NCBI GenBank assembly: GCA_964521285.1
Contig: CAZFQS010000004.1
Span: 8,115-72,114, forward strand
DNA length: 64,000 nucleotides
Origin: an uncultured Bacteroidales bacterium
GTDB taxonomy: Bacteria > Bacteroidota > Bacteroidia > Bacteroidales > UBA10428
Direction: 5' to 3'
Every line of letters begins with the position of its first letter. Positions within the stretch are counted from its first letter, which is position 1. Positions 1,291 through 35,870 of the stretch are shown here, in pieces. Both the position numbers and the translations under genes were made by a program. Under the pieces are notes generated by a model. That model was not told where the DNA came from and ran no database searches. It saw only the letters and a program-made list of their open reading frames with translations.

Positions 1291-2499
1291 ATGACCGGGA
1301 TTGCTGGCAATAAAGATGATTCAGCTCGTTCAGACTGTTTTGTAAGGGTTTCATTAACAAAGAAATCCGGGATTAAAATTGACCTTCAGACTAAGGTTGA
1401 CACCTTATATGGTGATTCTATAAGGAAATTATGCCTCGATATTCTGAACTTCTTTGAAGTAAAAAATGCAAAAGTTGAAATTGAAGATAAAGGGGCTCTC
1501 GATTTTATTATTGCAGCAAGACTTGAATCTGCTATCAAGGAAGTTATAACTTCAGAAAAGGAATACCTGTTACCACTGATAAAAGAAAATAACTATTTCA
1601 CTGATAAAAAAATTGCCAGGCGATCAAGACTGTACCTTCCCGGTAATTCACCAAAACTAATGATTAATGCCGGAATTTATTCTGCCGATGGTGTTATCCT
1701 CGATTTAGAGGATTCAGTGGCGCCTGATAAGAAAAATGAAGCCAGGTACCTGGTTAGAAATGCGCTCAGATCTGTTGATTTTTATGGTGCCGAAAGAATG
1801 GTGAGGATAAACCAGATTCCAGACGGACTTAATGATTTAAAGTATATTGTACCCCACAACGTAAATCTTATTTTAATACCCAAGTGTGAAACTCCCGCTC
1901 AAATCAAGCAAGTGGACAAAAAGATCAACGAAATAGCTAAAACATCTGATCATAGAATTCATCTTATGCCTATAATTGAAAGCGCATTGGGAGTAATAAA
2001 TGCATACAGCATAGCTTCGGCGTCGAAGCATATTGTTGCTATGGCAATCGGACTTGAAGATTATACTGCGGATATTGGTGCTCAAAGAACTGAAGAAGGA
2101 CAGGAATCGTTTTACGCACGAAGTGTGATAGTTAACGCATCTGCGGCTGCCGGCATTCAGGCTATTGATTCAGTTTATTCTGATGTTTCGAATATGGAAG
2201 GGTTAAAGGAAAATGTTGCACATTCAAAAGCCTTGGGCTTTGTTGGTATGGGGTGTATTCACCCGCGACAGGTTGGAATTATCAATGCAGGGTATAATCC
2301 CGGAGCGGCTGAAATTGAAAAAGCAAAAACTATTGTGCTGGCTTTTGAAGAAGCACAGCGGAAAGGACTGGGAGTTGTAGCTGTCAAATCAAAAATGATT
2401 GATCTTCCCGTAGTGAAAAGGGCTATAGATACTATAAATACTGCTATTACCGCTGGATTATTGAAAGAAAACTGGAAGGAGACGACAGAAAATGAGTAA
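1291..2499 (+). CDS. citD-citE: Citrate-lyase acyl carrier protein (gamma) fused to citryl-ACP lyase (beta): CitD-CitE fusion
   Basis: The N-terminal ~95 aa align with E. coli CitD ('AG..(S)D..VRV', 'YGDSIRKLCLDIL', 'EDKGALDFIIAARLESA'). The remainder aligns with CitE / the HpcH-HpaI fold ('RRSRLYLPGN', 'DLEDSVAPDKK', 'MVRIN', 'IESALGV', 'GLEDYTADIG', 'AIDSVYSD', 'GMGCIHPRQV', 'GLGVVAVKSKMIDLPVV'). Confidence 0.8.
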   Translation: MTGIAGNKDDSARSDCFVRVSLTKKSGIKIDLQTKVDTLYGDSIRKLCLDILNFFEVKNAKVEIEDKGALDFIIAARLESAIKEVITSEKEYLLPLIKENNYFTDKKIARRSRLYLPGNSPKLMINAGIYSADGVILDLEDSVAPDKKNEARYLVRNALRSVDFYGAERMVRINQIPDGLNDLKYIVPHNVNLILIPKCETPAQIKQVDKKINEIAKTSDHRIHLMPIIESALGVINAYSIASASKHIVAMAIGLEDYTADIGAQRTEEGQESFYARSVIVNASAAAGIQAIDSVYSDVSNMEGLKENVAHSKALGFVGMGCIHPRQVGIINAGYNPGAAEIEKAKTIVLAFEEAQRKGLGVVAVKSKMIDLPVVKRAIDTINTAITAGLLKENWKETTENE

Positions 2500-4042
2500 A
2501 ATGATAAAAAATGTATCAGGAAGAATGATTCCTGAATATATTAATGGGAAAAAAATTATTCCTTTTCAGGGTGTCGGTAAATTCATGCCTTCCGGAAGAA
2601 AAGCTATGCCCCGGATACCAACCTGTGCCGATTTTCCGCCTGATGGAAATAAGTTAGTGAAAAATCTTAAAGATGCTCTTTTAAGGGCTGGTGTCAGTGA
2701 CGGAAAGACTATTTCAACTCATCATCATTTTAGAAATGGGGATCTTATTGCAGTTAAGATTTTTAAAATTATCAGGGAGCTGGGATATAAAGATATGGTA
2801 TGGTTCCCTTCGGCATCATTTCCCTGCCACGAACCACTTATCGAATTTTTGGAAGATGGCACAATACATCATATAGAAGGCAGTATGAACGGCCCGCTGG
2901 GAAAATTTTGCTCTGAAGGTAAAATGAAAGGAGTTGCTGTTCTGCGCTCTCATGGTGGCCGTTACCAGGCAGTACAGGATGGCGATATTGAAATCGACAT
3001 CGCTGTTATTGCTGCTCCTGCTGCTGATCCTTTTGGTAATGCAAACGGTCTTACAGGTCCTTCAGCATGTGGCTTACTTGGATTTGCCCTTGCTGATTCC
3101 CAATATGCAGAGAAAGTAATTGTTGTTACAGATAATCTTGTTCCTTTTCCATGCATACCATGGCAGATCCAGGGCAACTACGTGGATTTTGTCGTCGAAG
3201 AAGAGAAAATAGGTATTCCTGAGAAAATTGTTTCAGGTACAACTCAAATGACCAGGAGTCCGGATAGACTGCTAATAGCTGAACTCACCTCAAAGTTTTG
3301 TGAAGAGGCCGGTCTTATTAAAGATGGTTTCTCCTTTCAAACAGGAGCCGGGGGTACTTCACTGGTGATCAGTACTTTCTTTCGTGATATTATGCGTGAA
3401 AAAGGTATCAAAGCACGCTTTGCCAGGGCCGGCAGTAACAAATACCTTGTTGAAATGCTGGAAGAGGGACTGGTTGAATACATACTTGATGGTCAGACAT
3501 TTGATCTTGAAGGTGTAAGATCAATGCGTGAAAATCCTAATCATGTCAATACAAGCCCTTTTACCAGTTATAATTATCACTCGAAAGGAAATTTTGCCAG
3601 CATGGTAGATATTGTTATTCTCGGAGCGACTGAAGTGGATGTGAACTTCAATGGTAATGTGGTCACTCACTCAGATGGCTATCTTTTACATGGAATTGGA
3701 GGGTGGCAAAATTGCCTGTTCGGAAAAACAGTTATTCTTCCTGTACCACTTTTTCGTGACCGTATACCTGTAATTGTTGACGAAGTTACTACCTTATGCG
3801 GGCCAGGTGAAATGATTGATGTAATAGTTACTGAGAGAGGTATTGCCATTAATCCGCTCAGAAAAGATCTTTTTGAAAAAGTTAAAAATTCCAATCTGCC
3901 GATAAAAACAATCCAGGAATTAAAAGATGAAGCTGAGAAAATTTGCGGTAAACCTGGCAAGCCGGAGTTTACAGACAAGGTGGTGGCTGCTATTAAGTGG
4001 GTTGATGGTACTGTCATTGATGTCGTGCGACAAGTTAAATAG
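2492..4042 (+). CDS. citF: Citrate lyase alpha subunit (citrate CoA/ACP-transferase)
   Basis: A 516-aa product of CitF length and pattern ('SFHHHFRNGD'-like 'STHHHFRNGDLI', 'FQTGAGGTSL', 'EVDVNFNGNVVT'). Its ATG overlaps the citD-citE stop by 8 nt (ATGAGTAA), which implies translational coupling. Confidence 0.85.
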   Translation: MSKMIKNVSGRMIPEYINGKKIIPFQGVGKFMPSGRKAMPRIPTCADFPPDGNKLVKNLKDALLRAGVSDGKTISTHHHFRNGDLIAVKIFKIIRELGYKDMVWFPSASFPCHEPLIEFLEDGTIHHIEGSMNGPLGKFCSEGKMKGVAVLRSHGGRYQAVQDGDIEIDIAVIAAPAADPFGNANGLTGPSACGLLGFALADSQYAEKVIVVTDNLVPFPCIPWQIQGNYVDFVVEEEKIGIPEKIVSGTTQMTRSPDRLLIAELTSKFCEEAGLIKDGFSFQTGAGGTSLVISTFFRDIMREKGIKARFARAGSNKYLVEMLEEGLVEYILDGQTFDLEGVRSMRENPNHVNTSPFTSYNYHSKGNFASMVDIVILGATEVDVNFNGNVVTHSDGYLLHGIGGWQNCLFGKTVILPVPLFRDRIPVIVDEVTTLCGPGEMIDVIVTERGIAINPLRKDLFEKVKNSNLPIKTIQELKDEAEKICGKPGKPEFTDKVVAAIKWVDGTVIDVVRQVK

Positions 4043-4080
4043 TTTATTAACAATAGAATAAAATAACAAACCGGAAGATT

Positions 4081-5271
4081 ATGCCGAAAAGGACTATTGT
4101 ATTGATGCCAGGTGATGGAATAGGGCGAATTGTACTCAGGGAAGCTGTCAGGGTTATAGATGCTGCCGGCTTTAAAGCTGATTATATTGTAGGCGATATT
4201 GGATGGGAGTTTTGGAAAAAAGAAGGTAATCCGCTTCCGGACAAAACCGTTAAGTTACTGGAAGAGCATAAAATTGGTTTGTTTGGTGCAATAACTTCAA
4301 AACCAAATGATGAGGCAAAGAATGAATTATCTCCCGGGCTTAAGGATAAAGGATTTGTATATTCCAGTCCGATTGTAGGATTACGCCAGCATTTCAATCT
4401 TGATATATGCATAAGGCCATGCAGGACATATAAAGGAAACCCGTTAAACTTTATTCGCCGCGGGAAAGATGGTTCTATTGAAGAGCCGGAAATTGATGTT
4501 GTTATTTTCAGGCAGAATACTGAAGGGTTATATAGTGGTGTTGAATGGAGTAACCCGGGAAATAAAGTATATGAAGCATTAATGTCCCACCCGAAATTTG
4601 TAAGGAATTTTAGTAATGTGCCCAAAGAAGATATTTCTGTTTCAACAAGGATATTTACAAAAAATGCTACGGAGAGAATCCTCCGTGCAGCATTTTCCTT
4701 CGCAGATAAATATGGTTATAAATCAGTTACAGTATGTGAAAAACCCAATGTTATCCGTGAAACATCAGGAATGATGTTCAGCATGGCCAAAGAGATCCGG
4801 AAGGGATTTTCCCATATCGAGCTTTGGAATACAAATATTGATGCCCAGATGATGTGGCTGACAAAAAATCCTGAGGATTATGGTGTTATTGTTGCAGGCA
4901 ATATGTTTGGGGATATCGTATCTGATGGATTTGCAGGACTTATTGGCGGACTGGGATTTGCTTGTAGTGCTAATATTGGGGATGAGGTGGCCGTGTTCGA
5001 ACCGACTCACGGATCTGCACCCAAATATGCTGCTTATGATATCTCTATTGTGAATCCGATTGCAATGGTATCATCTGCCTGTTTGATGCTTGACCATATT
5101 GATGAAAATGAAATCTCGGCAAATATCAGGAAAGCTATTGCTGAAGTTATTGCGGAAGGAAAGGTGAGAACCTATGATATGATGAAGATGACGGGCAACC
5201 CGGATGTGATATCAAGGGGTGCCGCATCAACTCAACAAATGACAGATGAAATTATTCGAAAATTAAAATAA
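4081..5271 (+). CDS. Isocitrate / homoisocitrate / isopropylmalate dehydrogenase-family enzyme (substrate not assignable by eye)
   Basis: Family motifs are present: 'PGDGIGRIV', 'GLRQHFNLDICIRPCR', 'NMFGDIVSDGFAGLIGGLGFACSANIG' and 'EPTHGSAPKYA'. At 396 aa it is longer than a typical LeuB. Confidence 0.8.
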   Translation: MPKRTIVLMPGDGIGRIVLREAVRVIDAAGFKADYIVGDIGWEFWKKEGNPLPDKTVKLLEEHKIGLFGAITSKPNDEAKNELSPGLKDKGFVYSSPIVGLRQHFNLDICIRPCRTYKGNPLNFIRRGKDGSIEEPEIDVVIFRQNTEGLYSGVEWSNPGNKVYEALMSHPKFVRNFSNVPKEDISVSTRIFTKNATERILRAAFSFADKYGYKSVTVCEKPNVIRETSGMMFSMAKEIRKGFSHIELWNTNIDAQMMWLTKNPEDYGVIVAGNMFGDIVSDGFAGLIGGLGFACSANIGDEVAVFEPTHGSAPKYAAYDISIVNPIAMVSSACLMLDHIDENEISANIRKAIAEVIAEGKVRTYDMMKMTGNPDVISRGAASTQQMTDEIIRKLK

Positions 5272-5278
5272 TAGTAAC

Positions 5279-5824
5279 ATGGAAGATGTAAAATCACTTT
5301 GGCCTGAGCTGGATTGGATAAAAGATGATGAGTTAAGAGAAAAGACAGCTAAAGCATGGCAACTTGCGCTTGAAAGAAGTATGCTGTCTGCTGATGATTT
5401 GCAAAAAATTCCTTTCACCCTGCAGTACGGACCTGACCTGAAAGTAAGCTTTATGGACCATAAGCGGGCTGTAGTTCATATTTCAGCGGAGAGCGGGAAA
5501 AAGATAAATGAGTTTTTTAAAGATGAATTGCCTGTAAATATGGATATCCTTATTTCAGGTGCTATTCTTTGTGATGTCGGCAAATTACTTGAGTATGTTT
5601 TTGATGATGAAGGAAATGTTGTTCAGGGACAATACGGAAAATACCTTCGTCATCCCTTCTCTGGGGTTTCCATAGCTGAAGAGTGCGGGGTTCCTGCTGA
5701 GGTATGCCATATTATTGCTGCTCATGCCGGTGAAGGAGATATGGTTAAGAGAACTACCGAAGCCTATATAGTGCATTATGCTGATTTTATGACATTTTTA
5801 CCTTTTAAAAACAGGCTAGAATAA
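5279..5824 (+). CDS. HD-domain-like protein with the HD dyad replaced by CD
   Basis: The HD-superfamily pattern H...(H)D...H...HH...D is recognisable ('HKRAVVHIS', 'AILCDVGKL', 'LRHPFSG', 'IIAAHAGEGD', 'HYADF'). The canonical 'LLHDIGK' reads 'ILCDVGK'. The gene sits 7 nt from both neighbours. Confidence 0.55.
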   Translation: MEDVKSLWPELDWIKDDELREKTAKAWQLALERSMLSADDLQKIPFTLQYGPDLKVSFMDHKRAVVHISAESGKKINEFFKDELPVNMDILISGAILCDVGKLLEYVFDDEGNVVQGQYGKYLRHPFSGVSIAEECGVPAEVCHIIAAHAGEGDMVKRTTEAYIVHYADFMTFLPFKNRLE

Positions 5825-5831
5825 TCAGAGG

Positions 5832-7643
5832 ATGGGAAAAACCATTATTGAAAAGATACTTGCTGCTCATTCCGGAAAGGAAACAGCAACTCCGGGAGAG
5901 ATCATCGAAGTTGAAATTGATGTCCGCCTGGCAAGAGATTTCGGGGGCGCAAATGTAGTTAAGAATTTGAAAGACAATAATCTTGTAATAGAAGACAAGT
6001 CAAAGACATACTTTACGTTTGACTGTAATCCTACAGGCTCTGATCAGAATTATGCCGCCAACCAGCAAGTTTGCAGGACTTTTGCACGTGAACTGGATAT
6101 TACTGTTTTTGATATTAACAGTGGTATTGGTACTCATCTGGCAATTGATAAAGGTTTGGCAATTCCCGGTTCAACTATTGTTTCAACTGACTCTCATGCG
6201 AATATTATGGGCGCGATTGGTGCATTCGGACAGGGAATGGGCGATCGTGATATTGCAGCAGCCTGGTCAAAAGGATCTGTATGGTTCAAAGTTCCTGAAT
6301 CAGTGAAAATTACAGTTTATGGGAAGAGGCCGGAAGGAGTGCTTGCTAAGGATATTATTCTCAACTTGCTCAGAGAATTTGGAGCAACCGGACTGCTTGG
6401 TTATTCTGTAGAAGTGGAAGGTGATGAGATTGAAAAGCTCACCCTGGATGAGCGTATAACAATATCATCAATGGCCACTGAAATGGGTGCAATAGCTATA
6501 TTTTTTACTCCTTCTGAAGAAGTTATGAAGTATTGCTCAAAGCGGTCAGGAACAAAGTTTGCTAAACTTACTCCTGATGAAGATGCATCATATAAGTATA
6601 ACTATACTGTAAGACTGGAAGATTTTTTTCAGGCTGTATCTTTACCGGGAAAGCCTCATAATGTCGTTCCTGTTAAGGAAGTGAAAGGAACAAAAATAGA
6701 CTCTGTTTTTATAGGGAGCTGTACCAACGGGCGTATTGAAGATATGAGAATAGCCTCCCAAATCCTTAAGGGGAAAAAGGTTGCCCCGGGTGTTGTTCTT
6801 AAGATTGTCCCGTCCACTGATGAGGTATGGAATCAATGTCTTGATGAAGGCATAATTAAGATATTCAAAGATGCAGGTGCTCTTTTTGGAAATGCAGGAT
6901 GCGCAGGATGTGCATCAGGCCAGATCGGACAGAACGGGCCCGGAGAGAAAACAGTAAGCACAGGGAACAGAAACTTTACCGGTAAGCAGGGAAAGGGAGA
7001 TGTTTATCTTGCCTCTCCGTCAGTTGCGGCTGCTTCAGCCATTGCAGGACATATAACAACTCACGATGAGCTGCCTCCTTCCCCATCGTTATTCGCCTCT
7101 TCGGGAGTTGCTATAAAGTCAAAAACTGATACTGCTATCAAAATTCATGATATGAATACGGTTTTAAAAGGGAAAGTATGGATAATTGAAAAAGATAATA
7201 TTGACACGGACATGATCTTTCATAATCAACATCTCTCTGTAACTGAAGTTGAAGAAATGGGCCAGTATACATTTGGAAATCTGCCTGGCTGGAAAGATTA
7301 TGCTACAAAATCTGAAACCGGTGATATTATTATCACAGGCGAAAATTTTGGAGCCGGCAGTTCCCGGCAACAGGCAGTTGATTGCTTTAAAGCATTAAAA
7401 AATAACGCAATTCTTGCCCGCTCATTTGGAGCAATTTACGAGAGAAATGCCATTAATGCAGGATTCCCTGTTTTAACCTACAACGATCTTGAAGTGCTTG
7501 AACTTGAACAAAGAGATATTGTGAGGATTGATTTGGAAAATGGTTTAATAACAAATCTAAAAAACGGAAAATCAGCTGAAATTGCAAAGTTTTCAAAAAT
7601 ACAATTAGAAATTTATAAAAAAGGGGATATTTTAAAATTATAA
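5832..7643 (+). CDS. Aconitase-superfamily dehydratase, fused LeuC/HacA-like large and LeuD/HacB-like small domains (paralogue 1)
   Basis: Large domain motifs: 'STDSHANIMG', 'GSCTNGRIEDM', 'GCAGCASGQ', 'STGNRNFTGKQG'. Swivel domain motifs: 'DNIDTDMI', 'GENFGAGSSRQQA'. Length is 603 aa. Confidence 0.8.
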   Translation: MGKTIIEKILAAHSGKETATPGEIIEVEIDVRLARDFGGANVVKNLKDNNLVIEDKSKTYFTFDCNPTGSDQNYAANQQVCRTFARELDITVFDINSGIGTHLAIDKGLAIPGSTIVSTDSHANIMGAIGAFGQGMGDRDIAAAWSKGSVWFKVPESVKITVYGKRPEGVLAKDIILNLLREFGATGLLGYSVEVEGDEIEKLTLDERITISSMATEMGAIAIFFTPSEEVMKYCSKRSGTKFAKLTPDEDASYKYNYTVRLEDFFQAVSLPGKPHNVVPVKEVKGTKIDSVFIGSCTNGRIEDMRIASQILKGKKVAPGVVLKIVPSTDEVWNQCLDEGIIKIFKDAGALFGNAGCAGCASGQIGQNGPGEKTVSTGNRNFTGKQGKGDVYLASPSVAAASAIAGHITTHDELPPSPSLFASSGVAIKSKTDTAIKIHDMNTVLKGKVWIIEKDNIDTDMIFHNQHLSVTEVEEMGQYTFGNLPGWKDYATKSETGDIIITGENFGAGSSRQQAVDCFKALKNNAILARSFGAIYERNAINAGFPVLTYNDLEVLELEQRDIVRIDLENGLITNLKNGKSAEIAKFSKIQLEIYKKGDILKL

Positions 7644-7667
7644 ATTCAACAAGTAAATCAAAAGAAG

Positions 7668-9449
7668 ATGGCAGGCAAAACCTTTGTTGAAAAGATTTTT
7701 AAGGCTAATGCCGGGTCAATAGTATTTGCCCGCCCTGATATTATTCTGTCACATGATAACACTGCCAGTATAAAGAAGATTTTCAATAAAATGGGATGTG
7801 AAAGGGTGTCAGATCCCCAACAGTTGATCATTGTACTCGATCACAACGCTCCTCCGACAAACAGTAAGCTGGCAAATGATTACCAGCAGATACGAAATTT
7901 TGTGGCAGATCAAAATATTTCCCGGTTTCATGATGCAGGTGAAGGTATCTGTCATCAGCTAATGTCAAAATATGCCCGGCCGGGAATGATAATTGCGGGT
8001 AGTGACAGCCATACATGTACAGCAGGGGCATTCAATGCCTTTGCTGCCGGAATTGACCGGACTGAGACAGCCGGATTATGGAAAAATGGGGAAACCTGGT
8101 TCAGGGTACCGGAGTCTATTAAATTATATTTTCATGGAAAGCTCAGAAATGGAGTATATGCTAAAGATTTAGCCTTATATATTGTGGGTATGATAGGCTC
8201 GAATGGAGCTAATTATATGTCAGTTGAGTATCACGGCGAGGGTGTTAAAACACTGACTGTTGAAGATCGTATGACAATTGCAAATCTTGCATCTGAAATG
8301 GGAGCAAAAAATGCAGTTTTCCCGCCAGACACTGTTTTAAATGAATATTTTGGCCAGGAATACGAGGGTATATGGGCTGATGAAGATGCCATCTACAAAA
8401 AGGTAATTGAAATTAATATTAACGACCTCTTTCCTGTTGTAGCATGTCCTCATCATGTTGATAATATAAAAAGTGTTGATGAGGTGAGCGGACAAAAAAT
8501 TGATATGGCACTAATAGGGACTTGCACAAATGGCAGAATTGAGGATTTGAGAGTTGCAGCAGAAATCCTTAAAGGGAAGAAAGTGAAACCCGGACTTCAG
8601 CTTCTGGTGTCCCCTGCCTCAAAAGAGATATACCTTCAGGCTATAAAAGAAGGACTGATAGAAATATTCATAACTGCAGGAGCAAATATTCTCTCACCCT
8701 CCTGTGGTCCGTGCCTGGGAACCGGACAGGGAATTCCTGCCGATGGATTTAATGTTATATCTACAGCAAACAGGAATTTTTTAGGACGGATGGGAAACAT
8801 AAAATCATTCATCTATCTTGCTTCTCCGGCTACGGTTGCAAAATCTGCCATTAATGGTGAAATTGCTTCCCCACTTGAAAGTCCTGAAAACAAAAAATAC
8901 CCTTACCATGTAAGGCAGGCTAAAACTATTAAAATAGCCCCTGAAGATAATAGAAGACATGAAAATGTCTGGGCATATAATGATGTTGATAACCTCAATA
9001 CAGACCAAATGTTTGCAGGAAACCTGACATATGAAATAGACAGCTCAGAGCCTGAGAAAATCAGGCCACACCTGTTCAGTGGATTTGATGGTAATTTCGC
9101 TGAAAATGTCCGGAAAGGAGATATAATTGTCTGCGGAGATAATTTTGGCTGTGGAAGTTCACGTGAACATCCATCAGTCGGACTTGTAAATGCCGGTGTT
9201 AAAGCAATAGTGGTCAAATCTGTATCACGAATTTTCTTTCGTTCAGCAATAAATCAGGGTTTACCTGTTATTATTCTACCCGAAGCTGTTGAAGCATATA
9301 AACCGGGAGATTATGTGCAGGTTGATCTGAGAAATAGTAAAGTAATAATAGAAAATAAAGAATTTGCAGTTAATCCTTTACCTGAAAGATTAATAGAGAT
9401 AATAGATAAAGGAGGACTGGCGAAATGGATCAAAAGTAAAACTAATTAG
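7668..9449 (+). CDS. Aconitase-superfamily dehydratase, fused LeuC/HacA-like large and LeuD/HacB-like small domains (paralogue 2)
   Basis: Large domain motifs: 'GSDSHTCTAGAF', 'GTCTNGRIEDL', 'SCGPCLGTGQG', 'STANRNFLGRMG'. Swivel domain motifs: 'DNLNTDQM', 'GDNFGCGSSREHP'. Length is 593 aa. Confidence 0.8.
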   Translation: MAGKTFVEKIFKANAGSIVFARPDIILSHDNTASIKKIFNKMGCERVSDPQQLIIVLDHNAPPTNSKLANDYQQIRNFVADQNISRFHDAGEGICHQLMSKYARPGMIIAGSDSHTCTAGAFNAFAAGIDRTETAGLWKNGETWFRVPESIKLYFHGKLRNGVYAKDLALYIVGMIGSNGANYMSVEYHGEGVKTLTVEDRMTIANLASEMGAKNAVFPPDTVLNEYFGQEYEGIWADEDAIYKKVIEININDLFPVVACPHHVDNIKSVDEVSGQKIDMALIGTCTNGRIEDLRVAAEILKGKKVKPGLQLLVSPASKEIYLQAIKEGLIEIFITAGANILSPSCGPCLGTGQGIPADGFNVISTANRNFLGRMGNIKSFIYLASPATVAKSAINGEIASPLESPENKKYPYHVRQAKTIKIAPEDNRRHENVWAYNDVDNLNTDQMFAGNLTYEIDSSEPEKIRPHLFSGFDGNFAENVRKGDIIVCGDNFGCGSSREHPSVGLVNAGVKAIVVKSVSRIFFRSAINQGLPVIILPEAVEAYKPGDYVQVDLRNSKVIIENKEFAVNPLPERLIEIIDKGGLAKWIKSKTN

Positions 9450-9470
9450 TTAAACATAAAATATTTTAAA

Positions 9471-11018
9471 ATGGCACAGGACTATGGTATTCATGAAGCA
9501 TTAAAAAAGCTTGGAATAAAAGATGTTAATAATGGATTGTGTACCGGTACAGTCTGGGAAGAGACATCAGGTGATTTAATAGAGTCTTATTCTCCTGTCG
9601 ACGGTGAAAAAATAGCCAATATTAAACAGGCTACTAAAAAAGACTATCATAAGGTTATAACCACGGCCAGAGATACTTTTAAAAAATGGAGGAAGATTTC
9701 CGCACCTGCTCGCGGAGAAGTGGTACGCCAGATTGGAAACGAATTAAGGGAATATAAAGAGCCACTTGGCAGGCTGGTATCATATGAAATGGGGAAAATC
9801 TTACAGGAAGGATTAGGTGAGGTTCAGGAAATGATTGATATCTGTGATTTCGCAGTTGGTCAATCCCGGCAGCTTTATGGTTTTACTATGCATTCAGAGA
9901 GGCCGAAGCACAGAATGTATGATCAGTATCACCCGCTGGGAATCGTTGGTGTAGTTACAGCATTTAATTTCCCTGTTGCTGTATGGGCATGGAACGCCAT
10001 GATTGCTATGGTGTGCGGAGATGTTGTTGTGTGGAAACCTTCTTCAAAGGTACTTCTGTGTGGAATAGCCGTACATAATATTGTAGCTAATGTTCTTAAG
10101 AAAAACAATGTTCCTGAAGGAGTACTCAATCTTGTAGCCACAAGTTCCAAATATCTTGGTAATGATATGTTTGCAGATAAAAATATTTCTCTTATCTCAT
10201 TTACCGGCTCAACACGTATAGGTAAAAAAGTCGGAGAGCTTGTCGGATCCAGATTGGGCAGGTCTATTCTGGAGCTGGGTGGTAATAACGCAATAATTGT
10301 CACGCCTGATGCTGACCTTGAAATGGCATTACGTGCAATAGTGTTTGGAGCTGTTGGCACCTGCGGACAAAGATGTACATCAACAAGAAGAATTATTATC
10401 CATGAGTCCGTTTATGAAACATTAAAAGAAAAACTGGTTAACAGTTATAAAAAAATAAAGATTGGAAATTCATTGGATCCTGACACCTTAGTAGGACCCC
10501 TTATTGATAAAGGTGCATCTGACATATTTATGGAAGCCATTCAGAAAGTCAAAAATGAAGGAGGTAAAATTTTATATGGGGGGTCAGTACTTGAAGGAGA
10601 TGAATATTCATCAGGATGTTATGTTACACCTTGTATAGCTGAAGTTAAAAATCACTATGAGATAGTCCGGGAAGAGACTTTTGCACCGCTTCTTTATCTT
10701 ATAAAATATAAGACTCTTGATGAAGCTATTGAAATACATAATGATGTGCCCCAGGGATTGTCTTCCGCAATGTTCACAACAAATATTCTGGAAGCTGAAA
10801 GGTTTTTATCCCATGAAGGATCAGATTGCGGTATAGCAAATATCAATATTGGAACTTCAGGAGCAGAGATTGGTGGTGCATTTGGAGGCGAAAAAGATAC
10901 AGGTGGAGGCCGTGAATCAGGATCTGACGCATGGAAAGCATATATGCGCAGACAAACAAATACTATAAACTGGAGTACTGATCTTCCTTTAGCCCAGGGA
11001 ATAGAGTTTAATGTTTAG
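9471..11018 (+). CDS. ALDH7-type alpha-aminoadipic semialdehyde / piperideine-6-carboxylate dehydrogenase
   Basis: Collinear over essentially the full length with human ALDH7A1. Shared segments include 'APARGEVVRQIGNELRE', 'EMGKILQEGLGEVQEMIDICDFAVG', 'VTAFNFPVAVWAWN', 'ELGGNNAII', the catalytic Cys in 'GTCGQRCTSTRR', and the C-terminal 'SGAEIGGAFGGEKDTGGGRESGSDAWKAYMRRQTNTINWS..LPLAQGIEF'. Confidence 0.9.
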   Translation: MAQDYGIHEALKKLGIKDVNNGLCTGTVWEETSGDLIESYSPVDGEKIANIKQATKKDYHKVITTARDTFKKWRKISAPARGEVVRQIGNELREYKEPLGRLVSYEMGKILQEGLGEVQEMIDICDFAVGQSRQLYGFTMHSERPKHRMYDQYHPLGIVGVVTAFNFPVAVWAWNAMIAMVCGDVVVWKPSSKVLLCGIAVHNIVANVLKKNNVPEGVLNLVATSSKYLGNDMFADKNISLISFTGSTRIGKKVGELVGSRLGRSILELGGNNAIIVTPDADLEMALRAIVFGAVGTCGQRCTSTRRIIIHESVYETLKEKLVNSYKKIKIGNSLDPDTLVGPLIDKGASDIFMEAIQKVKNEGGKILYGGSVLEGDEYSSGCYVTPCIAEVKNHYEIVREETFAPLLYLIKYKTLDEAIEIHNDVPQGLSSAMFTTNILEAERFLSHEGSDCGIANINIGTSGAEIGGAFGGEKDTGGGRESGSDAWKAYMRRQTNTINWSTDLPLAQGIEFNV

Positions 11019-11067
11019 CTTTTTAGCAGAAGTATGAGTCTTTAATCAGAAGAACCAAAACTATAGA

Positions 11068-12273
11068 ATGAAAATTGGTATTTTAAGAGAAAGCAAAAAA
11101 CCACGTGATGAAAGAGCTCCTTTATCACCTGAACAATGTAAGAACCTGGTTAAAAAATACAGTGAACTGAAAATTGTAGTTCAACCCTCTGACATTCGTT
11201 GTTTCAATGATGAAAAATATCTTAATGAAGGAATTTCCGTAAAGGAGGACTTGTCTGATTGTGATGTGCTGATGGGAGTAAAAGAGGTAAACATAGATGA
11301 GCTTATCCCTGATAAGACCTACATATTCTTTTCTCACACAATAAAAAACCAGGAGCACAACAAGAATCTTTTAAAAACAATTCTGAAAAAAAGTATACGG
11401 TTAATTGATTATGAAGTTTTAACTGATGTTAACGGATTGAGGGTTGTCGGATTTGGCCGCTTTGCGGGATTAGTGGGGGCTTACAATGGATTGAGGGCTT
11501 ATGCTTTACGGCTCGGAAGAACCGGGCCGAAACCCGTTTATTTATGCTCGGATTTGTATGAGATGAAGAATGAAATAAGGGACTTTGAAGTTCCAAATAT
11601 TAACATAGCTGTTACAGGTGGAGGCAGGGTAACTCACGGGGCAATGGAATTACTGGATGCCGCAGAAGTAAGGAAAGTATCAGTTGAAGATTTTCTGAAT
11701 AAATCATGTTATAATATTCCTGTCTATGTGCAACTTGAACCTGAGCATTATGTAAAACGAAAAGGTGGATTACCATTTGATCTACAGCATTTTTTTGATA
11801 ATCCGGATCAATATGAAAGTAATCTTGATAGATTTTTTTCTAATACTGACATGCTTATATCTGCCGCTTACTGGGACCCCCGGGCCCCTTTACTTTTTAC
11901 GCTTGAGCAGGTAAAAAACAGGGATTTCTCCATCAGGGTTATTGCTGATATAACTTGTGATATTAATGGTTCAATTCCAACAACCAAAAGGGCATCAAGA
12001 ATTGAAAAACCATTTTATGATTATAACAGGATTACCGGAGAGCTGGTGGAGCCTTTTTCAAATGAAGAAAATATTACTGTCATGGCTGTTGATAACCTGC
12101 CGTGCGAACTGCCAAAGGATGCGTCTGTAGATTTTGGGCAAATGCTCTCCGATAAGGTTATTCCTGCTTTGCTGGGTGATGATCCCGGGGAAATGATTAA
12201 AAAAGCTACTATAACGTCAAACGGAAATCTTACAGAGGACTTTAGATATCTGGAGGACTGGGTAAATGAATAA
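11068..12273 (+). CDS. Lysine-ketoglutarate reductase (saccharopine dehydrogenase, L-lysine-forming), monofunctional
   Basis: Collinear with the N-terminal LKR half of human AASS ('RE..DERAPLSP', 'KIVVQPS', 'TYIFFSHTIKNQEHNKNLL', 'IRLIDYE', 'LRVVGFGRFAGLVG', 'DITCDINGSI', 'MAVDNLPCELP', 'ITSNGNLT'). Confidence 0.85.
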   Translation: MKIGILRESKKPRDERAPLSPEQCKNLVKKYSELKIVVQPSDIRCFNDEKYLNEGISVKEDLSDCDVLMGVKEVNIDELIPDKTYIFFSHTIKNQEHNKNLLKTILKKSIRLIDYEVLTDVNGLRVVGFGRFAGLVGAYNGLRAYALRLGRTGPKPVYLCSDLYEMKNEIRDFEVPNINIAVTGGGRVTHGAMELLDAAEVRKVSVEDFLNKSCYNIPVYVQLEPEHYVKRKGGLPFDLQHFFDNPDQYESNLDRFFSNTDMLISAAYWDPRAPLLFTLEQVKNRDFSIRVIADITCDINGSIPTTKRASRIEKPFYDYNRITGELVEPFSNEENITVMAVDNLPCELPKDASVDFGQMLSDKVIPALLGDDPGEMIKKATITSNGNLTEDFRYLEDWVNE

Positions 12274-12310
12274 AGTAAAATTTATGGTCTAACTAATCAG
12301 ATCAAACCAC

Positions 12311-13642
12311 GTGAAAAGAATATTAGTAATTGGTGCGGGTATGTCAAGTATATACCTTATTAAGTACCTTGAAGAGCAATCTCAAATATACGGGTGGAAA
12401 TTAACTGTTGCTGATATAGATGTTAATATTGTTAAGGAAAAAACATGCCCGGATACTCTGGTTACAGAACTTAATGTATTAAATGATAGTCAAAGAGACA
12501 GCATAATACAGAAATATGATATTGTTGTCTCAATGTTGCCTGCAAATCTTCATATCCATGTTGCCAAATCATGTTTAAAATACTCAAAATTTTTGCTTAC
12601 TGCTTCTTATGAGTCAGATGAAATTAAGAAAATGAGAAATGAGGTAAAAGCAAATAATTTACTCTTCTTAAATGAAATGGGCCTTGATCCGGGATTGGAT
12701 CATATGTCAGCCATGCAAATACTTGACAGGATAAGAAGTGCAGGACATGAGTTACTCGGATTCGAATCTTTTACCGGGGGTCTTATTGCTCCGGAGTCTG
12801 ACAATAATCCATGGCACTATAAGTTTTCGTGGAATCCCTCGAATGTTGTCAGGGCAGGACAAGAGGGGCCGGCAAAATTCATACAGGAAGGGAAATATAA
12901 GTATATACCTTACAACAGACTATTTCGCCGGACAGAAATCATTGAAATTGATAAATACGGAAAATTCGAAGGTTATGCGAATCGTGATTCATTGGAATAT
13001 ATAGAAAAATATAATCTTCAGGGTGTGCCAACAGTCTACCGCGGGACTTTAAGAAGACCCGGATTTTGCAGGGCATGGGATGTTTTTGTTCAACTTGGTG
13101 CGACAGATGACAGTTATATTATAGAAAATTCAGAGACTCTGACCCATAAGGAGTTTATTAATTCATTTTTGTACTATAGTAAAACCGATTCGGTTGAATT
13201 AAAACTATACCATTATATGCATATCGATCAGGACTCCAGCATTATTGAAAAGCTCCGGTGGCTGGGAATTTTTGATGATACCCCTGTTGGAATAAAAAAT
13301 GCTTCACCGGCAAAAATCCTTGAACATATCCTTAACAAGAAATGGAGGCTGGAACCTGAAGATAAAGATATGATTGTAATGTGGCATAAGATAACCTATA
13401 AGGAAAAAGATAAGACAAGCCCAGCCATTCTCACGTCATCACTTTGCGTTATCGGAGAAAATATGAAGAAAACTGCTATGGCCAAAACTGTTGGCTTACC
13501 ATTGGCTATAGCGACGAAACTTGTTCTTAATGGAGAGATCAATGTTAAGGGTTTATGTATACCTACGATTAAAGAGATTTATGAGCCAGTACTTATTGAA
13601 TTAAAGGGCTACGGAATTGTTTTTATTGAAAAGGAATTATAG
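12311..13642 (+). CDS. Saccharopine dehydrogenase (L-glutamate-forming), monofunctional
   Basis: GTG start. Collinear with the C-terminal SDH half of human AASS ('ILVIGAGMSS', 'EMGLDPGLDHMSAMQ', 'FTGGLIAPESDNNPWHYKFSWNP', 'EGYANRDS', 'YRGTLRRPGF', 'EDKDMIVMWH', 'AMAKTVGLPLAIATKLVLNGEI'). Confidence 0.85.
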   Translation: MKRILVIGAGMSSIYLIKYLEEQSQIYGWKLTVADIDVNIVKEKTCPDTLVTELNVLNDSQRDSIIQKYDIVVSMLPANLHIHVAKSCLKYSKFLLTASYESDEIKKMRNEVKANNLLFLNEMGLDPGLDHMSAMQILDRIRSAGHELLGFESFTGGLIAPESDNNPWHYKFSWNPSNVVRAGQEGPAKFIQEGKYKYIPYNRLFRRTEIIEIDKYGKFEGYANRDSLEYIEKYNLQGVPTVYRGTLRRPGFCRAWDVFVQLGATDDSYIIENSETLTHKEFINSFLYYSKTDSVELKLYHYMHIDQDSSIIEKLRWLGIFDDTPVGIKNASPAKILEHILNKKWRLEPEDKDMIVMWHKITYKEKDKTSPAILTSSLCVIGENMKKTAMAKTVGLPLAIATKLVLNGEINVKGLCIPTIKEIYEPVLIELKGYGIVFIEKEL

Positions 13643-35854: not shown

Positions 35855-35870
35855 ATATAATTTTCTTGCC

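What the first reader, a model, noticed from the sequence alone, without database searches (positions are those of the whole stretch)
1291..13642. Saccharopine-pathway genes clustered with citrate-lyase-, homoaconitase- and homoisocitrate-dehydrogenase-like genes: candidate reversed alpha-aminoadipate route for lysine catabolism
Seen: nine + strand genes with gaps of -8 to 49 nt. They are the CitD-CitE fusion, CitF, an IDH/HICDH-family dehydrogenase, an HD-like protein, two fused LeuC/LeuD-type dehydratases, an ALDH7-type dehydrogenase, LKR and SDH. FTCD, a glutamate-linked catabolic enzyme, lies 39 nt upstream. Established: LKR, SDH and ALDH7 convert lysine to 2-aminoadipate. The known continuation uses 2-oxoadipate dehydrogenase and glutaryl-CoA dehydrogenase, and neither is here. 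Homoaconitase-type and HICDH-type enzymes make 2-oxoadipate in alpha-aminoadipate (AAA) lysine biosynthesis. The two committed biosynthetic enzymes of that pathway, homocitrate synthase and aminoadipate reductase, are absent. A citrate-lyase complex and a catabolically directed ALDH stand in their places. Inference: the upper AAA pathway runs backwards. 2-oxoadipate + CO2 + NAD(P)H would give homoisocitrate, then cis-homoaconitate, then homocitrate, which the lyase would cleave to acetate + 2-oxoglutarate. With a generic aminotransferase the balance closes as Lys + 2-OG + CO2 -> 2 Glu + acetate. That is approximately redox-neutral and would suit an anaerobe. I do not know of a description of such a route and cannot search to confirm novelty.
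Basis: partly seen in the sequence, partly recalled or inferred. Interest (0 to 1): 0.85.

Follow-up and report, generated by a model that had tools for sequence, protein, structure and literature searches.

The report
Reverse-homocitrate lysine breakdown gene cluster
A nine-gene operon, conserved in several phyla of anaerobic bacteria, joins the known first steps of lysine breakdown to enzymes that look like the lysine-building (aminoadipate) pathway run backwards; if it works that way, it is an undescribed, oxygen-free route from lysine to glutamate and acetate.

Summary
Nine tightly packed + strand genes lie at 1291-13642: a CitD-CitE fusion, CitF, an Iso_dh-family dehydrogenase, an HD protein, two fused LeuC/LeuD-type dehydratases, an ALDH7-type P6C dehydrogenase, LKR and SDH.

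The link between the lyase/dehydrogenase/dehydratase module and the lysine genes is not chance. It recurs in two different gene orders, in Bacteroidales/Marinilabiliales and in Cloacimonadota-type genomes, with LKR only 32-38% identical between them. In some loci lysine 6-dehydrogenase stands in place of LKR.

The catabolic direction is favoured for three reasons. ALDH7 passes its equivalog cutoff. A histidine-utilisation (hut) operon sits directly upstream. The dehydrogenase carries an NADP-type cofactor signature and lacks the IDH Asn115 and the Thermus HICDH Arg85.

Best reading (about 0.5): 2-oxoadipate is reductively carboxylated, isomerised and cleaved to acetate + 2-oxoglutarate.

Open problems:
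- The dehydratase specificity loops are not homoaconitase-like.
- No citC/X/G genes and no aminotransferase lie in any cluster.
- The conserved HD protein has no role and a degenerate HD motif.
- There is a stereochemical mismatch: the CitEF family cleaves the pro-S-type arm, whereas (R)-homocitrate needs pro-R-type cleavage.

I found no description of such a route in the literature I could search.

The parts
22..1251 (+). 3' part of a formiminotransferase-cyclodeaminase (FTCD) gene, the last gene of a hutH-hutU-hutI-FTCD histidine-to-glutamate operon. It is adjacent context rather than a core part.
   Evidence: Pfam FTCD + FTCD_C. The full 561-aa gene and the upstream hut genes are seen on the source contig, L100. 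It is not conserved next to the cluster in other loci.
1291..2499 (+). CitD-CitE fusion: an acyl-carrier domain plus the lyase (beta) subunit of a citrate-lyase-like complex. It is the proposed homocitryl-ACP lyase.
   Evidence: Pfam ACP 14-84 and HpcH_HpaI 111-325. CitE model 280 bits against a cutoff of 443; CitD model 61 bits against 63.5. It is 38% identical to E. coli CitE and 34% to CitD. An 'RSDC' Ser is invariant in all fusion orthologues. The fusion is widespread and diverse.
2492..4042 (+). CitF-like alpha subunit (acyl-ACP:tricarboxylate transferase). An alternative start at 2525 is possible.
   Evidence: Pfam CitF; TIGR01584 523 bits against a cutoff of 501. It is 40% identical to E. 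coli CitF. A gene caller gives 505 aa in L100.
4081..5271 (+). Beta-decarboxylating dehydrogenase of the IDH/HICDH/IPMDH family with an NADP-type signature. It is the proposed 2-oxoadipate reductive carboxylase (homoisocitrate dehydrogenase run in reverse).
   Evidence: The best NCBIfam models are AksF2/AksF HICDH, all below cutoff. PDB: 6lky 4.7e-53 and Thermus HICDH 8e-51. All catalytic Arg/Tyr/Lys/Asp residues are present. The pocket is Ser/Ile/Val, against Icd Thr105/Asn115/Val116 and Thermus Ser72/Ile84/Arg85. 'HGSAPKY' matches Icd K344/Y345, against 'HGSAPDI' in the NAD enzymes, and is present in 34 of 35 sequences (the window protein and 34 orthologues).
5279..5824 (+). Small HD-fold protein of unknown role. 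It is always found between the dehydrogenase and the first dehydratase.
   Evidence: Pfam HD, NCBIfam HDIG. More than 7900 homologues. The His of the HD dyad is Cys here and Ala/Cys in the Bacteroidota clade; His is kept in a second clade. AF2 model pLDDT 91.5. The best fold match is the YhaM HD domain at 3e-5, a generic HD fold.
5832..7643 (+). Fused LeuC/LeuD-type [4Fe-4S] dehydratase, 'Acn1'. It is proposed to carry one half of the homoisocitrate/cis-homoaconitate/homocitrate isomerisation.
   Evidence: Aconitase + Aconitase_C; hacA_fam 394 bits against a cutoff of 386. Cys297/357/360 and the GSSR motif are invariant. It forms a clean orthologue clade separate from Acn2. Loop 'NQHLSVT' ('NRYL[TA]IT' in other clades), with no Arg at the HACN Arg26 position.
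7668..9449 (+). Second fused LeuC/LeuD-type dehydratase, 'Acn2', proposed to carry the other half-reaction. It is unfused in an Aminicenantes locus and absent from a Calditrichota locus.
   Evidence: hacA_fam 491 bits against a cutoff of 386. It is about 33% identical to Acn1 and forms its own orthologue clade. Loop 'G[NK][LH]TY'. Variants in L098 and L097.
9471..11018 (+). ALDH7-type L-piperidine-6-carboxylate / 2-aminoadipate-semialdehyde dehydrogenase. It is the irreversible step that sets the catabolic direction.
   Evidence: NF050084 equivalog, 810 bits against a cutoff of 730. It follows Acn2 in the window, L001-3, L006, L008, L011, L013 and L016.
11068..12273 (+). Lysine-ketoglutarate reductase (saccharopine dehydrogenase, L-lysine-forming type).
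   Evidence: AlaDh_PNT_N/C. Human AASS LKR domain 1.5e-46; yeast Lys1 2.4e-14. The same position is occupied in L011, L013 and L016. In L001/2/4/8 a lysine 6-dehydrogenase homologue takes its place.
12311..13642 (+). Saccharopine dehydrogenase (L-glutamate-forming type). The GTG start at 12311 keeps the Rossmann GxGxxG motif.
   Evidence: Sacchrp_dh_NADP + Sacchrp_dh_C. Human AASS SDH domain 1.2e-62; Magnaporthe saccharopine reductase 4.6e-59.
13775..14329 (+). SnoaL-like/DUF4440 protein downstream of SDH. Membership is doubtful.
   Evidence: Pfam SnoaL_3/DUF4440. It is seen only on contigs that carry the identical HD protein (L100, L101) and not in other loci.

Best explanation
The cluster encodes an oxygen-independent route for lysine catabolism.

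Shown by homology: LKR and SDH (or, in relatives, lysine 6-dehydrogenase) convert lysine to 2-aminoadipate semialdehyde, and the ALDH7-type enzyme oxidises this to 2-aminoadipate.

Inferred: a housekeeping aminotransferase encoded elsewhere gives 2-oxoadipate. The NADP(H)-type dehydrogenase then carboxylates it reductively to homoisocitrate. The two Fe-S dehydratases convert this through homoaconitate to homocitrate. The ACP-dependent CitDE/CitF complex cleaves homocitrate to acetate + 2-oxoglutarate.

The net reaction is about Lys + 2-oxoglutarate + CO2 -> 2 Glu + acetate, with one net NAD(P)H. This is the 2-oxoacid chain-elongation module of aminoadipate lysine biosynthesis run backwards, with a citrate-lyase-type complex in place of homocitrate synthase. 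The HD protein is a conserved partner of the dehydrogenase and Acn1, and its role is unknown.
For: 1. Identity of the lysine steps: ALDH7 passes the P6C-dehydrogenase equivalog cutoff. LKR and SDH match the two AASS domains.

2. Conserved linkage in two architectures. CitDE-CitF-DH-HD-Acn1-Acn2-ALDH7-LKR-SDH occurs in Bacteroidales/Marinilabiliales, including the isolate Marinilabiliaceae bacterium JC017. SDH-LKR-CitDE-CitF-DH-HD-Acn1-Acn2 occurs in Cloacimonetes-type genomes. The LKR and SDH of the two architectures are only 32-38% identical.

3. The reciprocal test works. Starting from three LKR homologues on 3.7-4.0 Mb contigs, all three sit next to the module.

4. The first step is displaced by a non-orthologue. 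A lysine 6-dehydrogenase homologue (3ABI, 8e-66) lies divergently upstream in L001/2/4/8, where LKR is missing.

5. Sixteen of 24 lyase-containing loci carry at least one lysine gene. Excluding L100 (the source contig) and L103-L105 (found by starting from LKR), it is 12 of 20. Four of the eight without one are truncated on the relevant side. None of 13 well-flanked loci that lack the lyase carries one.

6. Direction. The ALDH step is irreversible. A complete hut operon, which also ends in glutamate, is directly upstream on the same strand. AraC or TrmB regulators flank the module in relatives.

7. The dehydrogenase has the Icd-type NADP signature ('APKY', Tyr391), whereas the NAD enzymes aligned here (Thermus HICDH, the biosynthetic one; 6lky; E. 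coli LeuB) have 'APDI'. It lacks both known ways of binding isocitrate: Asn115 is Ile and Thermus Arg85 is Val.

8. Two aconitase-family enzymes are what the homocitrate/homoisocitrate isomerisation needs in fungi (PMC3556520, title and abstract).

9. No homocitrate synthase, aminoadipate reductase or LysW-type genes are in the window or the loci.
Against: - There is no biochemical or expression evidence. Everything beyond 2-aminoadipate is inferred from gene context.
- The LeuD-domain loops of Acn1 and Acn2 have Ser/Thr/Ala where methanogen homoaconitase has the carboxylate-binding Arg (the reference motif is from memory).
- The dehydrogenase is below every HICDH cutoff.
- CitF still passes the citrate-lyase equivalog cutoff, so citrate remains a possible substrate.
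- No citC/citX/citG genes lie near any lyase locus. No aminotransferase lies in any cluster. Type B clusters also lack ALDH7.
- Stereochemistry (my reasoning from established facts): citrate lyase and citramalate lyase cleave the pro-S-type arm. The acetate arm of (R)-homocitrate is pro-R-type.
- The module occurs without lysine genes within 10 kb in L007, L022, Calditrichota L097 and Aminicenantes L098.
- DH-HD-Acn1 and Acn1-Acn2 occur as separate fragments in many Bacteroidota-like contigs.
Confidence: 0.5

Rival explanations
1. The module is an NADP-isocitrate dehydrogenase + aconitase + citrate lyase set that works on the C6 tricarboxylates. It would either run reductively (2-oxoglutarate + CO2 + NADPH -> isocitrate -> citrate -> acetate + oxaloacetate, which ferments the glutamate produced by the hut and LKR/SDH genes), or run oxidatively to supply LKR with 2-oxoglutarate and NADPH. 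On this reading lysine breakdown stops at 2-aminoadipate or continues through genes elsewhere.
For: CitF passes the citrate lyase alpha equivalog cutoff. The dehydrogenase shares the NADP signature, Ser113 and an insertion with E. coli Icd. Its substrate loop is locally most similar to E. coli IDH. In the source organism the hut operon, the module and the LKR/SDH genes all revolve around glutamate and 2-oxoglutarate.
Against: Asn115 is Ile in the aligned orthologues; the 'SPIV' substrate loop is the same in the window protein and the five aligned orthologues, and 'SPIVGLRQ' recurs in 20 of 35 sequences. In the short-segment search the top local hit, 1grp, reads Leu at this position. The dehydratases belong to the LeuC/HacA subfamily and score far below all aconitase models. 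CitE is well below its equivalog cutoff. No citrate transporter, oxaloacetate decarboxylase, gdh or citC/X/G lies in any locus. This reading does not explain why LKR/SDH/LysDH, rather than hut or gdh, is the recurrent partner across phyla. One contig with Acn1-Acn2 also carries a canonical Icd.
Confidence: 0.15
2. The module shortens or isomerises some other 2-oxoacid or alkylmalate, for example a hydrophobic or otherwise uncharged substrate or a range of chain lengths. Its proximity to the lysine genes would then reflect co-regulation of amino-acid catabolism rather than one linear pathway.
For: The specificity loops of both dehydratases lack the Arg of homoaconitase and carry small or hydrophobic residues as in isopropylmalate isomerase. 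The dehydrogenase pocket, Ile-Val, resembles the Thermus R85V variant (properties of the variant are from memory). The module exists without lysine genes nearby in four well-flanked loci, and as fragments in many contigs. The HD protein has no place in the simple scheme.
Against: Three different lysine-to-semialdehyde solutions are attached to the module in two gene orders. No genes for leucine, isoleucine or another substrate recur next to it. 2-Oxoadipate is the only 2-oxoacid that the attached genes lead to.
Confidence: 0.2
3. The genes run in the biosynthetic direction. Acetate (as acetyl-ACP) + 2-oxoglutarate give homocitrate, then 2-oxoadipate and 2-aminoadipate, and, as in fungi, saccharopine reductase and saccharopine dehydrogenase make lysine.
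For: LKR and SDH belong to the same families as fungal Lys1 and Lys9 and are reversible. By analogy with isocitrate dehydrogenase, aconitase and citrate lyase, the lyase/isomerase/dehydrogenase sequence is near equilibrium overall (inference). Type B clusters lack ALDH7.
Against: No aminoadipate reductase or LysW/LysZ/LysY genes are present, and a non-acylating ALDH7 cannot reduce a free carboxylate. ALDH7 passes the catabolic P6C-dehydrogenase equivalog cutoff. The dehydrogenase is NADP-type, unlike the NAD-type Thermus HICDH. A catabolic hut operon is adjacent. Bacteroidales are expected to make lysine through diaminopimelate (general knowledge, not tested here).
Confidence: 0.05

Closest known systems
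Saccharopine pathway of lysine catabolism (LKR/SDH + AASADH/ALDH7; animals, plants, Ruegeria pomeroyi)
   Same: The last three genes match the two AASS domains and the P6C dehydrogenase equivalog, and they give 2-aminoadipate (pathway definition in PMC7253579, abstract).
   Different: The known continuation (2-oxoadipate dehydrogenase, glutaryl-CoA dehydrogenase) is absent from the cluster. A lyase/dehydrogenase/dehydratase module is attached instead. LKR and SDH are separate proteins here.
Upper alpha-aminoadipate pathway / 2-oxoacid elongation (homocitrate synthase, homoaconitase, homoisocitrate dehydrogenase; Thermus, fungi, methanogen AksADEF)
   Same: The enzyme families for the isomerase and dehydrogenase steps are the same. 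Two aconitase-family enzymes are used, as in fungi (PMC3556520). The best NCBIfam models are AksF and hacA_fam.
   Different: There is no homocitrate synthase. The dehydrogenase has an NADP-type signature and lacks Thermus Arg85. The dehydratases are large/small subunit fusions without the homoaconitase loop Arg. The proposed direction is reversed.
Citrate (pro-3S)-lyase CitDEF and citramalate lyase of glutamate fermentation
   Same: An ACP-dependent transferase plus a lyase. CitF passes the equivalog cutoff, and the proteins are 38-40% identical to E. coli CitE and CitF. Citramalate lyase is the precedent for this complex acting on another hydroxy-acid at the end of an amino-acid fermentation (knowledge).
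   Different: CitD is fused to CitE. No citC/X/G genes are nearby. CitE is below its cutoff. The proposed substrate, homocitrate, would need the opposite arm to be cleaved if it is the (R) isomer.
Reductive carboxylation of 2-oxoglutarate followed by citrate cleavage (reductive TCA logic)
   Same: The order of reaction types is the same: an NADPH-linked carboxylating dehydrogenase, an aconitase-type isomerase, then cleavage to acetate or acetyl plus a shorter oxo-acid.
   Different: The substrates are one carbon longer. The lyase is ATP-independent. The purpose is amino-acid catabolism rather than CO2 fixation.
HglS/2-hydroxyglutarate route of Pseudomonas putida (2-oxoadipate -> D-2-hydroxyglutarate -> 2-oxoglutarate)
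   Same: The same metabolic job: converting 2-oxoadipate from lysine into 2-oxoglutarate without glutaryl-CoA (bioRxiv 10.1101/450254 and 10.1101/2020.01.30.927905, abstracts).
   Different: That route uses an O2-dependent Fe(II) oxygenase and loses a carbon as CO2. The route proposed here is O2-independent, fixes CO2 and releases acetate.

Membership tests
Saccharopine pathway (LKR, SDH, AASADH) | An LKR homologous to the N-terminal domain of AASS / Lys1 (AlaDH fold) | tested here: met
   AlaDh_PNT_N/C. Human AASS LKR domain 1.5e-46; yeast Lys1 2.4e-14.
Saccharopine pathway (LKR, SDH, AASADH) | An SDH homologous to the C-terminal domain of AASS / Lys9 | tested here: met
   Sacchrp_dh_NADP + Sacchrp_dh_C. 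AASS SDH domain 1.2e-62.
Saccharopine pathway (LKR, SDH, AASADH) | An ALDH7-type semialdehyde/P6C dehydrogenase | tested here: met
   NF050084 equivalog, 810 bits against a cutoff of 730.
Saccharopine pathway (LKR, SDH, AASADH) | Conversion of lysine to 2-aminoadipate demonstrated | not testable with these tools
   This needs enzyme assays or labelling.
Citrate (pro-3S)-lyase complex CitDEF | Alpha subunit CitF | tested here: met
   TIGR01584, 523 bits against a cutoff of 501. 40% identical to E. coli CitF.
Citrate (pro-3S)-lyase complex CitDEF | Beta subunit CitE at equivalog level | tested here: not met
   TIGR01588, 280 bits against a cutoff of 443. 38% identical to E. coli CitE.
Citrate (pro-3S)-lyase complex CitDEF | Gamma subunit ACP with the prosthetic-group Ser | tested here: inconclusive
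   CitD model 61 bits against a cutoff of 63.5. The domain is fused to CitE. A Ser in 'RSDC' is invariant but aligns one residue away from E. coli Ser14.
Citrate (pro-3S)-lyase complex CitDEF | Accessory genes citC, citX and citG in the operon | tested here: not met
   tblastn with E. coli CitC, CitX and CitG gave no hit in the window or in the 93 loci held at that point, which include 19 of the 24 lyase-bearing loci. For the later lyase-bearing loci L097-L100 and L103-L105, the precomputed Pfam tables list none. The rest of the genomes could not be searched.
Citrate (pro-3S)-lyase complex CitDEF | Citrate as substrate, with pro-3S cleavage | not testable with these tools
   This needs an assay with citrate, (R)-homocitrate and (S)-homocitrate.
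Homoisocitrate dehydrogenase | Membership of a curated HICDH model | tested here: not met
   AksF2 265 bits against a cutoff of 540; AksF 258 against 500. These are the best-scoring models, but all are below cutoff.
Homoisocitrate dehydrogenase | Catalytic residues of beta-decarboxylating dehydrogenases | tested here: met
   The equivalents of Arg119/129/153, Tyr160, Lys230 and Asp283/307/311 are all present.
Homoisocitrate dehydrogenase | Thermus-type substrate determinants Ser72 and Arg85, and the NAD signature | tested here: not met
   The Ser72 equivalent is kept, Arg85 is Val, and 'APKY' replaces 'APDI'.
Isocitrate dehydrogenase | The Ser113/Asn115 pair that binds the gamma-carboxylate of isocitrate | tested here: not met
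   Ser is kept. Asn115 is Ile in the window protein and the five aligned orthologues ('SPIV'), and 'SPIVGLRQ' recurs in 20 of 35 sequences.
Homoaconitase (HacAB / methanogen HACN) | LeuC/HacA-type large domain with three cluster Cys, and a small domain with GSSR | tested here: met
   Both proteins exceed the hacA_fam cutoff. The Cys and GSSR residues are conserved.
Homoaconitase (HacAB / methanogen HACN) | Small-subunit loop 'YLRT' with the carboxylate-binding Arg (motif from memory of the M. jannaschii work) | tested here: not met
   Acn1 has 'HLSV' or 'YL[TA]I'. Acn2 has 'NLTY' or 'KHTY'.
HD phosphohydrolase | H...HD...D metal-binding motif | tested here: not met
   The dyad His is Cys in the window and Ala/Cys in 119 of 120 close homologues. 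The other His and Asp residues are invariant. The fold itself is HD.

The most novel reading that the evidence does not exclude
A previously undescribed anaerobic lysine pathway is widespread in FCB-group bacteria (Bacteroidales/Marinilabiliales and Cloacimonadota). The core module also occurs in Calditrichota and Aminicenantes. After saccharopine or lysine 6-dehydrogenase and ALDH7, 2-oxoadipate is shortened by reverse 2-oxoacid elongation: NADPH-dependent reductive carboxylation, two dedicated Fe-S dehydratases and a new ACP-dependent 'homocitrate lyase'.

The module may work iteratively (C6 -> C5 -> C4, releasing acetate each time). It may pass through an unusual stereoisomer, since (S)-homocitrate would fit the lyase family's geometry. 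It includes an HD-fold protein with a degenerate metal site as a new accessory component.
Probability: 0.45. Interest if true: 0.85.

Novelty: new variant of a known kind. Interest (0 to 1): 0.75.

Why it matters
How strict anaerobes dispose of 2-aminoadipate/2-oxoadipate without a 2-oxoadipate dehydrogenase complex and glutaryl-CoA dehydrogenase is not settled.

If this reading is right, it would:
- add a new lysine degradation route to the known set;
- provide the first homocitrate-cleaving lyase, a third substrate class for the citrate/citramalate lyase family;
- give a natural example of a 2-oxoacid elongation module used for chain shortening, with net CO2 incorporation.

Pathway annotation and carbon and nitrogen budgets for peptide-degrading anaerobes would therefore change. 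The enzymes would also be of use for making or degrading adipate-family chemicals. A cultured carrier exists (Marinilabiliaceae bacterium JC017), so the idea can be tested directly.

Tried and rejected
- The class I/II 'aminotransferase' next to the cluster in L011 looked like the missing 2-aminoadipate aminotransferase. It is 2-amino-3-ketobutyrate CoA ligase (Kbl, 1e-164), so it is irrelevant.
- An Rfam scan of the window and 11 loci for a lysine riboswitch or other leader found only one tRNA.
- The sigma-70 promoter and terminator scan was uninformative: fewer promoter-like sites than in shuffles, and Bacteroidota promoters are not covered.
- The HD protein has no solved relative by sequence. 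The fold search of a confident model gave only generic HD domains, so no function could be assigned.
- I recalled that fungal HICDH carries a 'YSSPIV' loop like the window protein. A short-segment PDB search did not retrieve S. pombe HICDH and instead gave E. coli IDH, so I dropped that argument.
- The Thermus HICDH paper (JBC 2003) is not held. Statements about the R85V variant therefore rest on memory.
- I used contig length as a fingerprint to ask whether the Calditrichota and Aminicenantes genomes that carry the module also carry LKR. They did not appear among the best 120 LKR hits. This is inconclusive because of the listing limit, although seven other contigs matched between the HD and LKR lists.
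- FTCD as a conserved member of the cluster is rejected. It is adjacent only in the source lineage.
- Literature searches ('homocitrate lyase'; 2-oxoadipate + reductive carboxylation + homoisocitrate; reverse aminoadipate pathway; Bacteroidetes + saccharopine + citrate lyase) found no description.

Full report

Pfam and NCBIfam confirm each family:
- a CitD(ACP)-CitE fusion;
- CitF, above the citrate lyase alpha cutoff;
- an Iso_dh-family dehydrogenase;
- a 181-aa HD/HDIG protein;
- two 600-aa LeuC-LeuD fusions, both above the hacA_fam subfamily cutoff and about 33% identical to each other;
- an ALDH that passes the L-piperidine-6-carboxylate dehydrogenase equivalog cutoff (810 bits against 730);
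- an AlaDH-fold protein whose best solved relative is the LKR domain of human AASS (1.5e-46);
- a Sacchrp_dh protein whose best solved relative is the SDH domain of AASS (1.2e-62).

The FTCD ORF is cut by the window edge. On the source contig it is the last gene of hutH-hutU-hutI-FTCD, directly upstream on the same strand (L100). The rest of the window encodes glycoside hydrolases and phosphorylases, sulfatases and several radical-SAM enzymes. That profile fits a saccharolytic anaerobe of the Bacteroidales type. It has no citC/X/G, aminotransferase, homocitrate synthase or glutaryl-CoA genes.

**Comparative genomics.** A genome scan with Acn2 and a metagenome scan with an Acn1 alignment gave 89 loci (L001-L009 and L014-L093); L010, the tenth locus from the genome scan, is a distant Methanococcoides relative (25% identity) that took no further part. 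Look-ups by exact protein added further loci used below (L011-L013, L097-L105). I mapped the window proteins onto all of them with tblastn and clustered the flanking ORFs.

Acn1 and Acn2 form two clean orthologue clades. Four kinds of locus appear:
- *Type A*, the window's order, occurs in Bacteroidales/Marinilabiliales. It includes the isolate Marinilabiliaceae bacterium JC017 and a 3.1-Mb contig.
- *A variant of type A* has no LKR. A divergent upstream gene is 8e-66 to 3ABI, the L-lysine 6-dehydrogenase of Pyrococcus horikoshii (identity of 3ABI from PMC10413350).
- *Type B*, SDH-LKR-CitDE-CitF-DH-HD-Acn1-Acn2, occurs in Cloacimonetes and related contigs. Its LKR and SDH are only 32-38% identical to the window's.
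- *Fragmented loci* contain only DH-HD-Acn1, or only AraC-Acn1-Acn2, between housekeeping genes.

In the reciprocal test I started from three type B LKR homologues on 3.7-4.0 Mb contigs. All three lie next to the module.

Sixteen of 24 loci that hold the lyase genes carry at least one lysine-to-aminoadipate gene; without L100 (the source contig) and the three loci found by starting from LKR, it is 12 of 20. Four of the eight that carry none are truncated on the relevant side. None of 13 well-flanked loci without the lyase carries any. The module alone occurs in a Calditrichota genome (TrmB-DH-HD-Acn1-CitDE-CitF). It also occurs in an Aminicenantes genome, where the second dehydratase is unfused.

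The functional link between the module and lysine oxidation is therefore well supported, although it is not universal.

**Direction.** Four observations favour catabolism:
- The ALDH7 step is practically irreversible, and the protein is an equivalog of the catabolic enzyme.
- A catabolic hut operon that also ends in glutamate is directly upstream.
- AraC and TrmB regulators accompany the module in relatives.
- No aminoadipate reductase or LysW-type genes are present.

I aligned the dehydrogenase with real E. coli Icd and LeuB (fetched) and with Thermus HICDH and 6lky (rebuilt). All catalytic residues are present. The cofactor signature is that of NADP-Icd: 'HGSAPKY' corresponds to K344/Y345, and Tyr391 is kept. 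The three NAD enzymes have 'HGSAPDI'. 'HGSAPKY' is present in 34 of 35 sequences, the window protein and 34 orthologues. The assignment of these residues to NADP binding is established knowledge of E. coli IDH, recalled from memory. An NADPH-linked enzyme fits a reductive carboxylation, but it does not prove one.

**Substrates.** The dehydrogenase keeps the equivalents of Icd Ser113 and Thermus Ser72. It has Ile at Icd Asn115 and Val at Thermus Arg85. It therefore lacks both known ways of holding the gamma-carboxylate of isocitrate. It is neither a canonical IDH nor a Thermus-type HICDH. Its best curated models are the methanogen HICDHs, at about half of their cutoffs.

The dehydratases have the three cluster cysteines and the GSSR motif. 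However, their small-domain loop reads 'HLSV'/'YL[TA]I' in Acn1 and 'NLTY'/'KHTY' in Acn2. It does not read 'YLRT', the loop I recall for methanogen homoaconitase.

CitE is 38% and CitF 40% identical to the E. coli subunits. CitE is far below its equivalog cutoff, while CitF is just above its own. Sequence therefore neither proves nor excludes the homo-series. What it does exclude is simple membership of the IDH, aconitase and LeuBCD families.

**Mechanism proposed.**

*Shown by homology:*
- Lys + 2-oxoglutarate + NADPH -> saccharopine (LKR);
- saccharopine -> 2-aminoadipate semialdehyde + Glu (SDH);
- or Lys -> semialdehyde + NH3 (LysDH in relatives);
- semialdehyde -> 2-aminoadipate (ALDH7).

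*Inferred:*
- transamination to 2-oxoadipate by an enzyme encoded elsewhere;
- reductive carboxylation to homoisocitrate;
- dehydration and rehydration by Acn1 and Acn2, one half-reaction each, as fungi need two aconitase-family enzymes (PMC3556520);
- transfer to the ACP and cleavage to acetate + 2-oxoglutarate.

Counting cofactors, the balance gives one net NAD(P)H rather than redox neutrality. By analogy with isocitrate dehydrogenase, aconitase and citrate lyase, the lower module should be close to equilibrium. It would be pulled forward by consumption of 2-oxoglutarate (inference).

**Problems.**

1. *Stereochemistry.* By CIP rules the carboxymethyl arm of (2R)-homocitrate occupies the position of the pro-R arm of citrate. 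That is the arm on which aconitase-type enzymes act. Citrate (pro-3S)-lyase and (S)-citramalate lyase both cleave the pro-S-type arm. Either this lyase has inverted specificity, or one of the two dehydratases delivers (S)-homocitrate. The second option would be another reason for having two dehydratases. This is my reasoning from textbook facts and is not a tool result.

2. *Priming of the ACP.* No citC, citX or citG lies in the window or near any lyase locus. It is therefore unknown how the ACP domain is primed and acetylated. The domain has an invariant Ser in 'RSDC'.

3. *Missing steps.* No aminotransferase lies in any cluster, and type B clusters lack ALDH7.

4. *The HD protein.* It is the most constant neighbour of the dehydrogenase and Acn1, with 7-nt gaps, and it is present even in the fragmented loci. 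Its confident model (pLDDT 91.5) matches only generic HD domains. The His of the HD dyad is Ala or Cys in the Bacteroidota clade. A second clade, which includes Cloacimonetes, Calditrichota and Aminicenantes proteins, keeps it, as seen in three of its members. No role can be assigned.

**Rivals.**
- *A C6 reading.* The module would be NADP-IDH + aconitase + citrate lyase, either fermenting glutamate-derived 2-oxoglutarate or feeding LKR. It fits the CitF score and the Icd-like features. It is weakened by the missing Asn115, the LeuC/HacA-type dehydratases, the absence of citrate-related genes, and the specific recurrence of lysine genes.
- *Another substrate.* The module might act on a different 2-oxoacid and be merely co-regulated with lysine genes. 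The atypical specificity residues and the lysine-free loci keep this reading alive.
- *A biosynthetic direction.* This is unlikely for want of a carboxylate-reducing step.
- *An iterative version* (C6 to C5 to C4) would reconcile the first rival with the main reading.

**Novelty.** Full-text searches found no 'homocitrate lyase', no reductive carboxylation of 2-oxoadipate, and no reversed aminoadipate route. The library misses most subscription journals, so absence is not proof.

The parts all belong to known families, and the upper pathway is the known saccharopine route. What is new is the combination, the proposed direction and the proposed lyase substrate. I therefore rate it a new variant of a known kind, of high interest and directly testable in a cultured carrier.

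Noticed in passing
window 22-1251; L100 1-5973: On the source contig the cluster is immediately preceded, on the same strand, by a complete histidine-utilisation operon (hutH, hutU, hutI, FTCD). The two together form a 13-gene run of amino-acid-to-glutamate genes. This adjacency is specific to this lineage.
   Followed up: partly
window 5570-5572 (residue 98 of the HD protein, 5279-5824): The His of the HD dyad is Cys here and Ala/Cys in 119 of 120 close homologues. Sampled members of a second clade, which includes Cloacimonetes, Calditrichota and Aminicenantes proteins, keep His. All other putative metal ligands are invariant.
   Followed up: yes
L099 8158-8615; L020/L023/L025 between CitF and DH; L011 7981-8617: Unrelated genes are inserted between CitF and the dehydrogenase in relatives. 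They are a DUF4258/DUF2283 pair (toxin-antitoxin-like), an M23 peptidase with a T9SS sorting tail, and two small ORFs without Pfam hits.
   Followed up: no
L033, L039, L044, L054 and others (DH-HD-Acn1 only); L047-L049, L053, L072 and others (AraC-Acn1-Acn2 only): In many Bacteroidota-like metagenome contigs the module is split into two fragments flanked by housekeeping genes (CCA-adding enzyme, MiaA, BioG). Whether those genomes also hold the lyase and the lysine genes could not be checked.
   Followed up: partly
L052 424-1632: A canonical Icd (70% identical to E. coli Icd) lies about 8 kb upstream of an Acn1-Acn2 pair. At least one carrier therefore has a separate housekeeping IDH.
   Followed up: no
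P0387, P0442 (representative library): Two proteins of about 930-943 aa carry the CitDE-like region at their C-terminus (residues ~568-933). They may be a larger fusion of lyase subunits.
   Followed up: no
window 57240-61387: A Memo + AMMECR1 fusion protein (532 aa) is followed by an 840-aa protein with a spermidine-synthase-like domain. Radical-SAM genes lie elsewhere in the window.
   Followed up: no
window 39343-43930: Two sulfatases are followed by a radical-SAM/SPASM protein, the usual arrangement for an anaerobic sulfatase-maturating enzyme.
   Followed up: no
window 31138-39280 and 48342-54387: There are two carbohydrate clusters built around phosphorylases: GH115, an MFS_2 transporter, GH94 and GH130; and, on the minus strand, alpha-amylase, a GH65 phosphorylase, a HAD hydrolase and an MFS transporter.
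   Followed up: no
window 21636-22271: A small cupredoxin (plastocyanin/azurin-like) protein carries a type IX secretion C-terminal sorting domain.
   Followed up: no
window 56325-56397 (-): A single tRNA gene, the only Rfam match at gathering score in the window.
   Followed up: no
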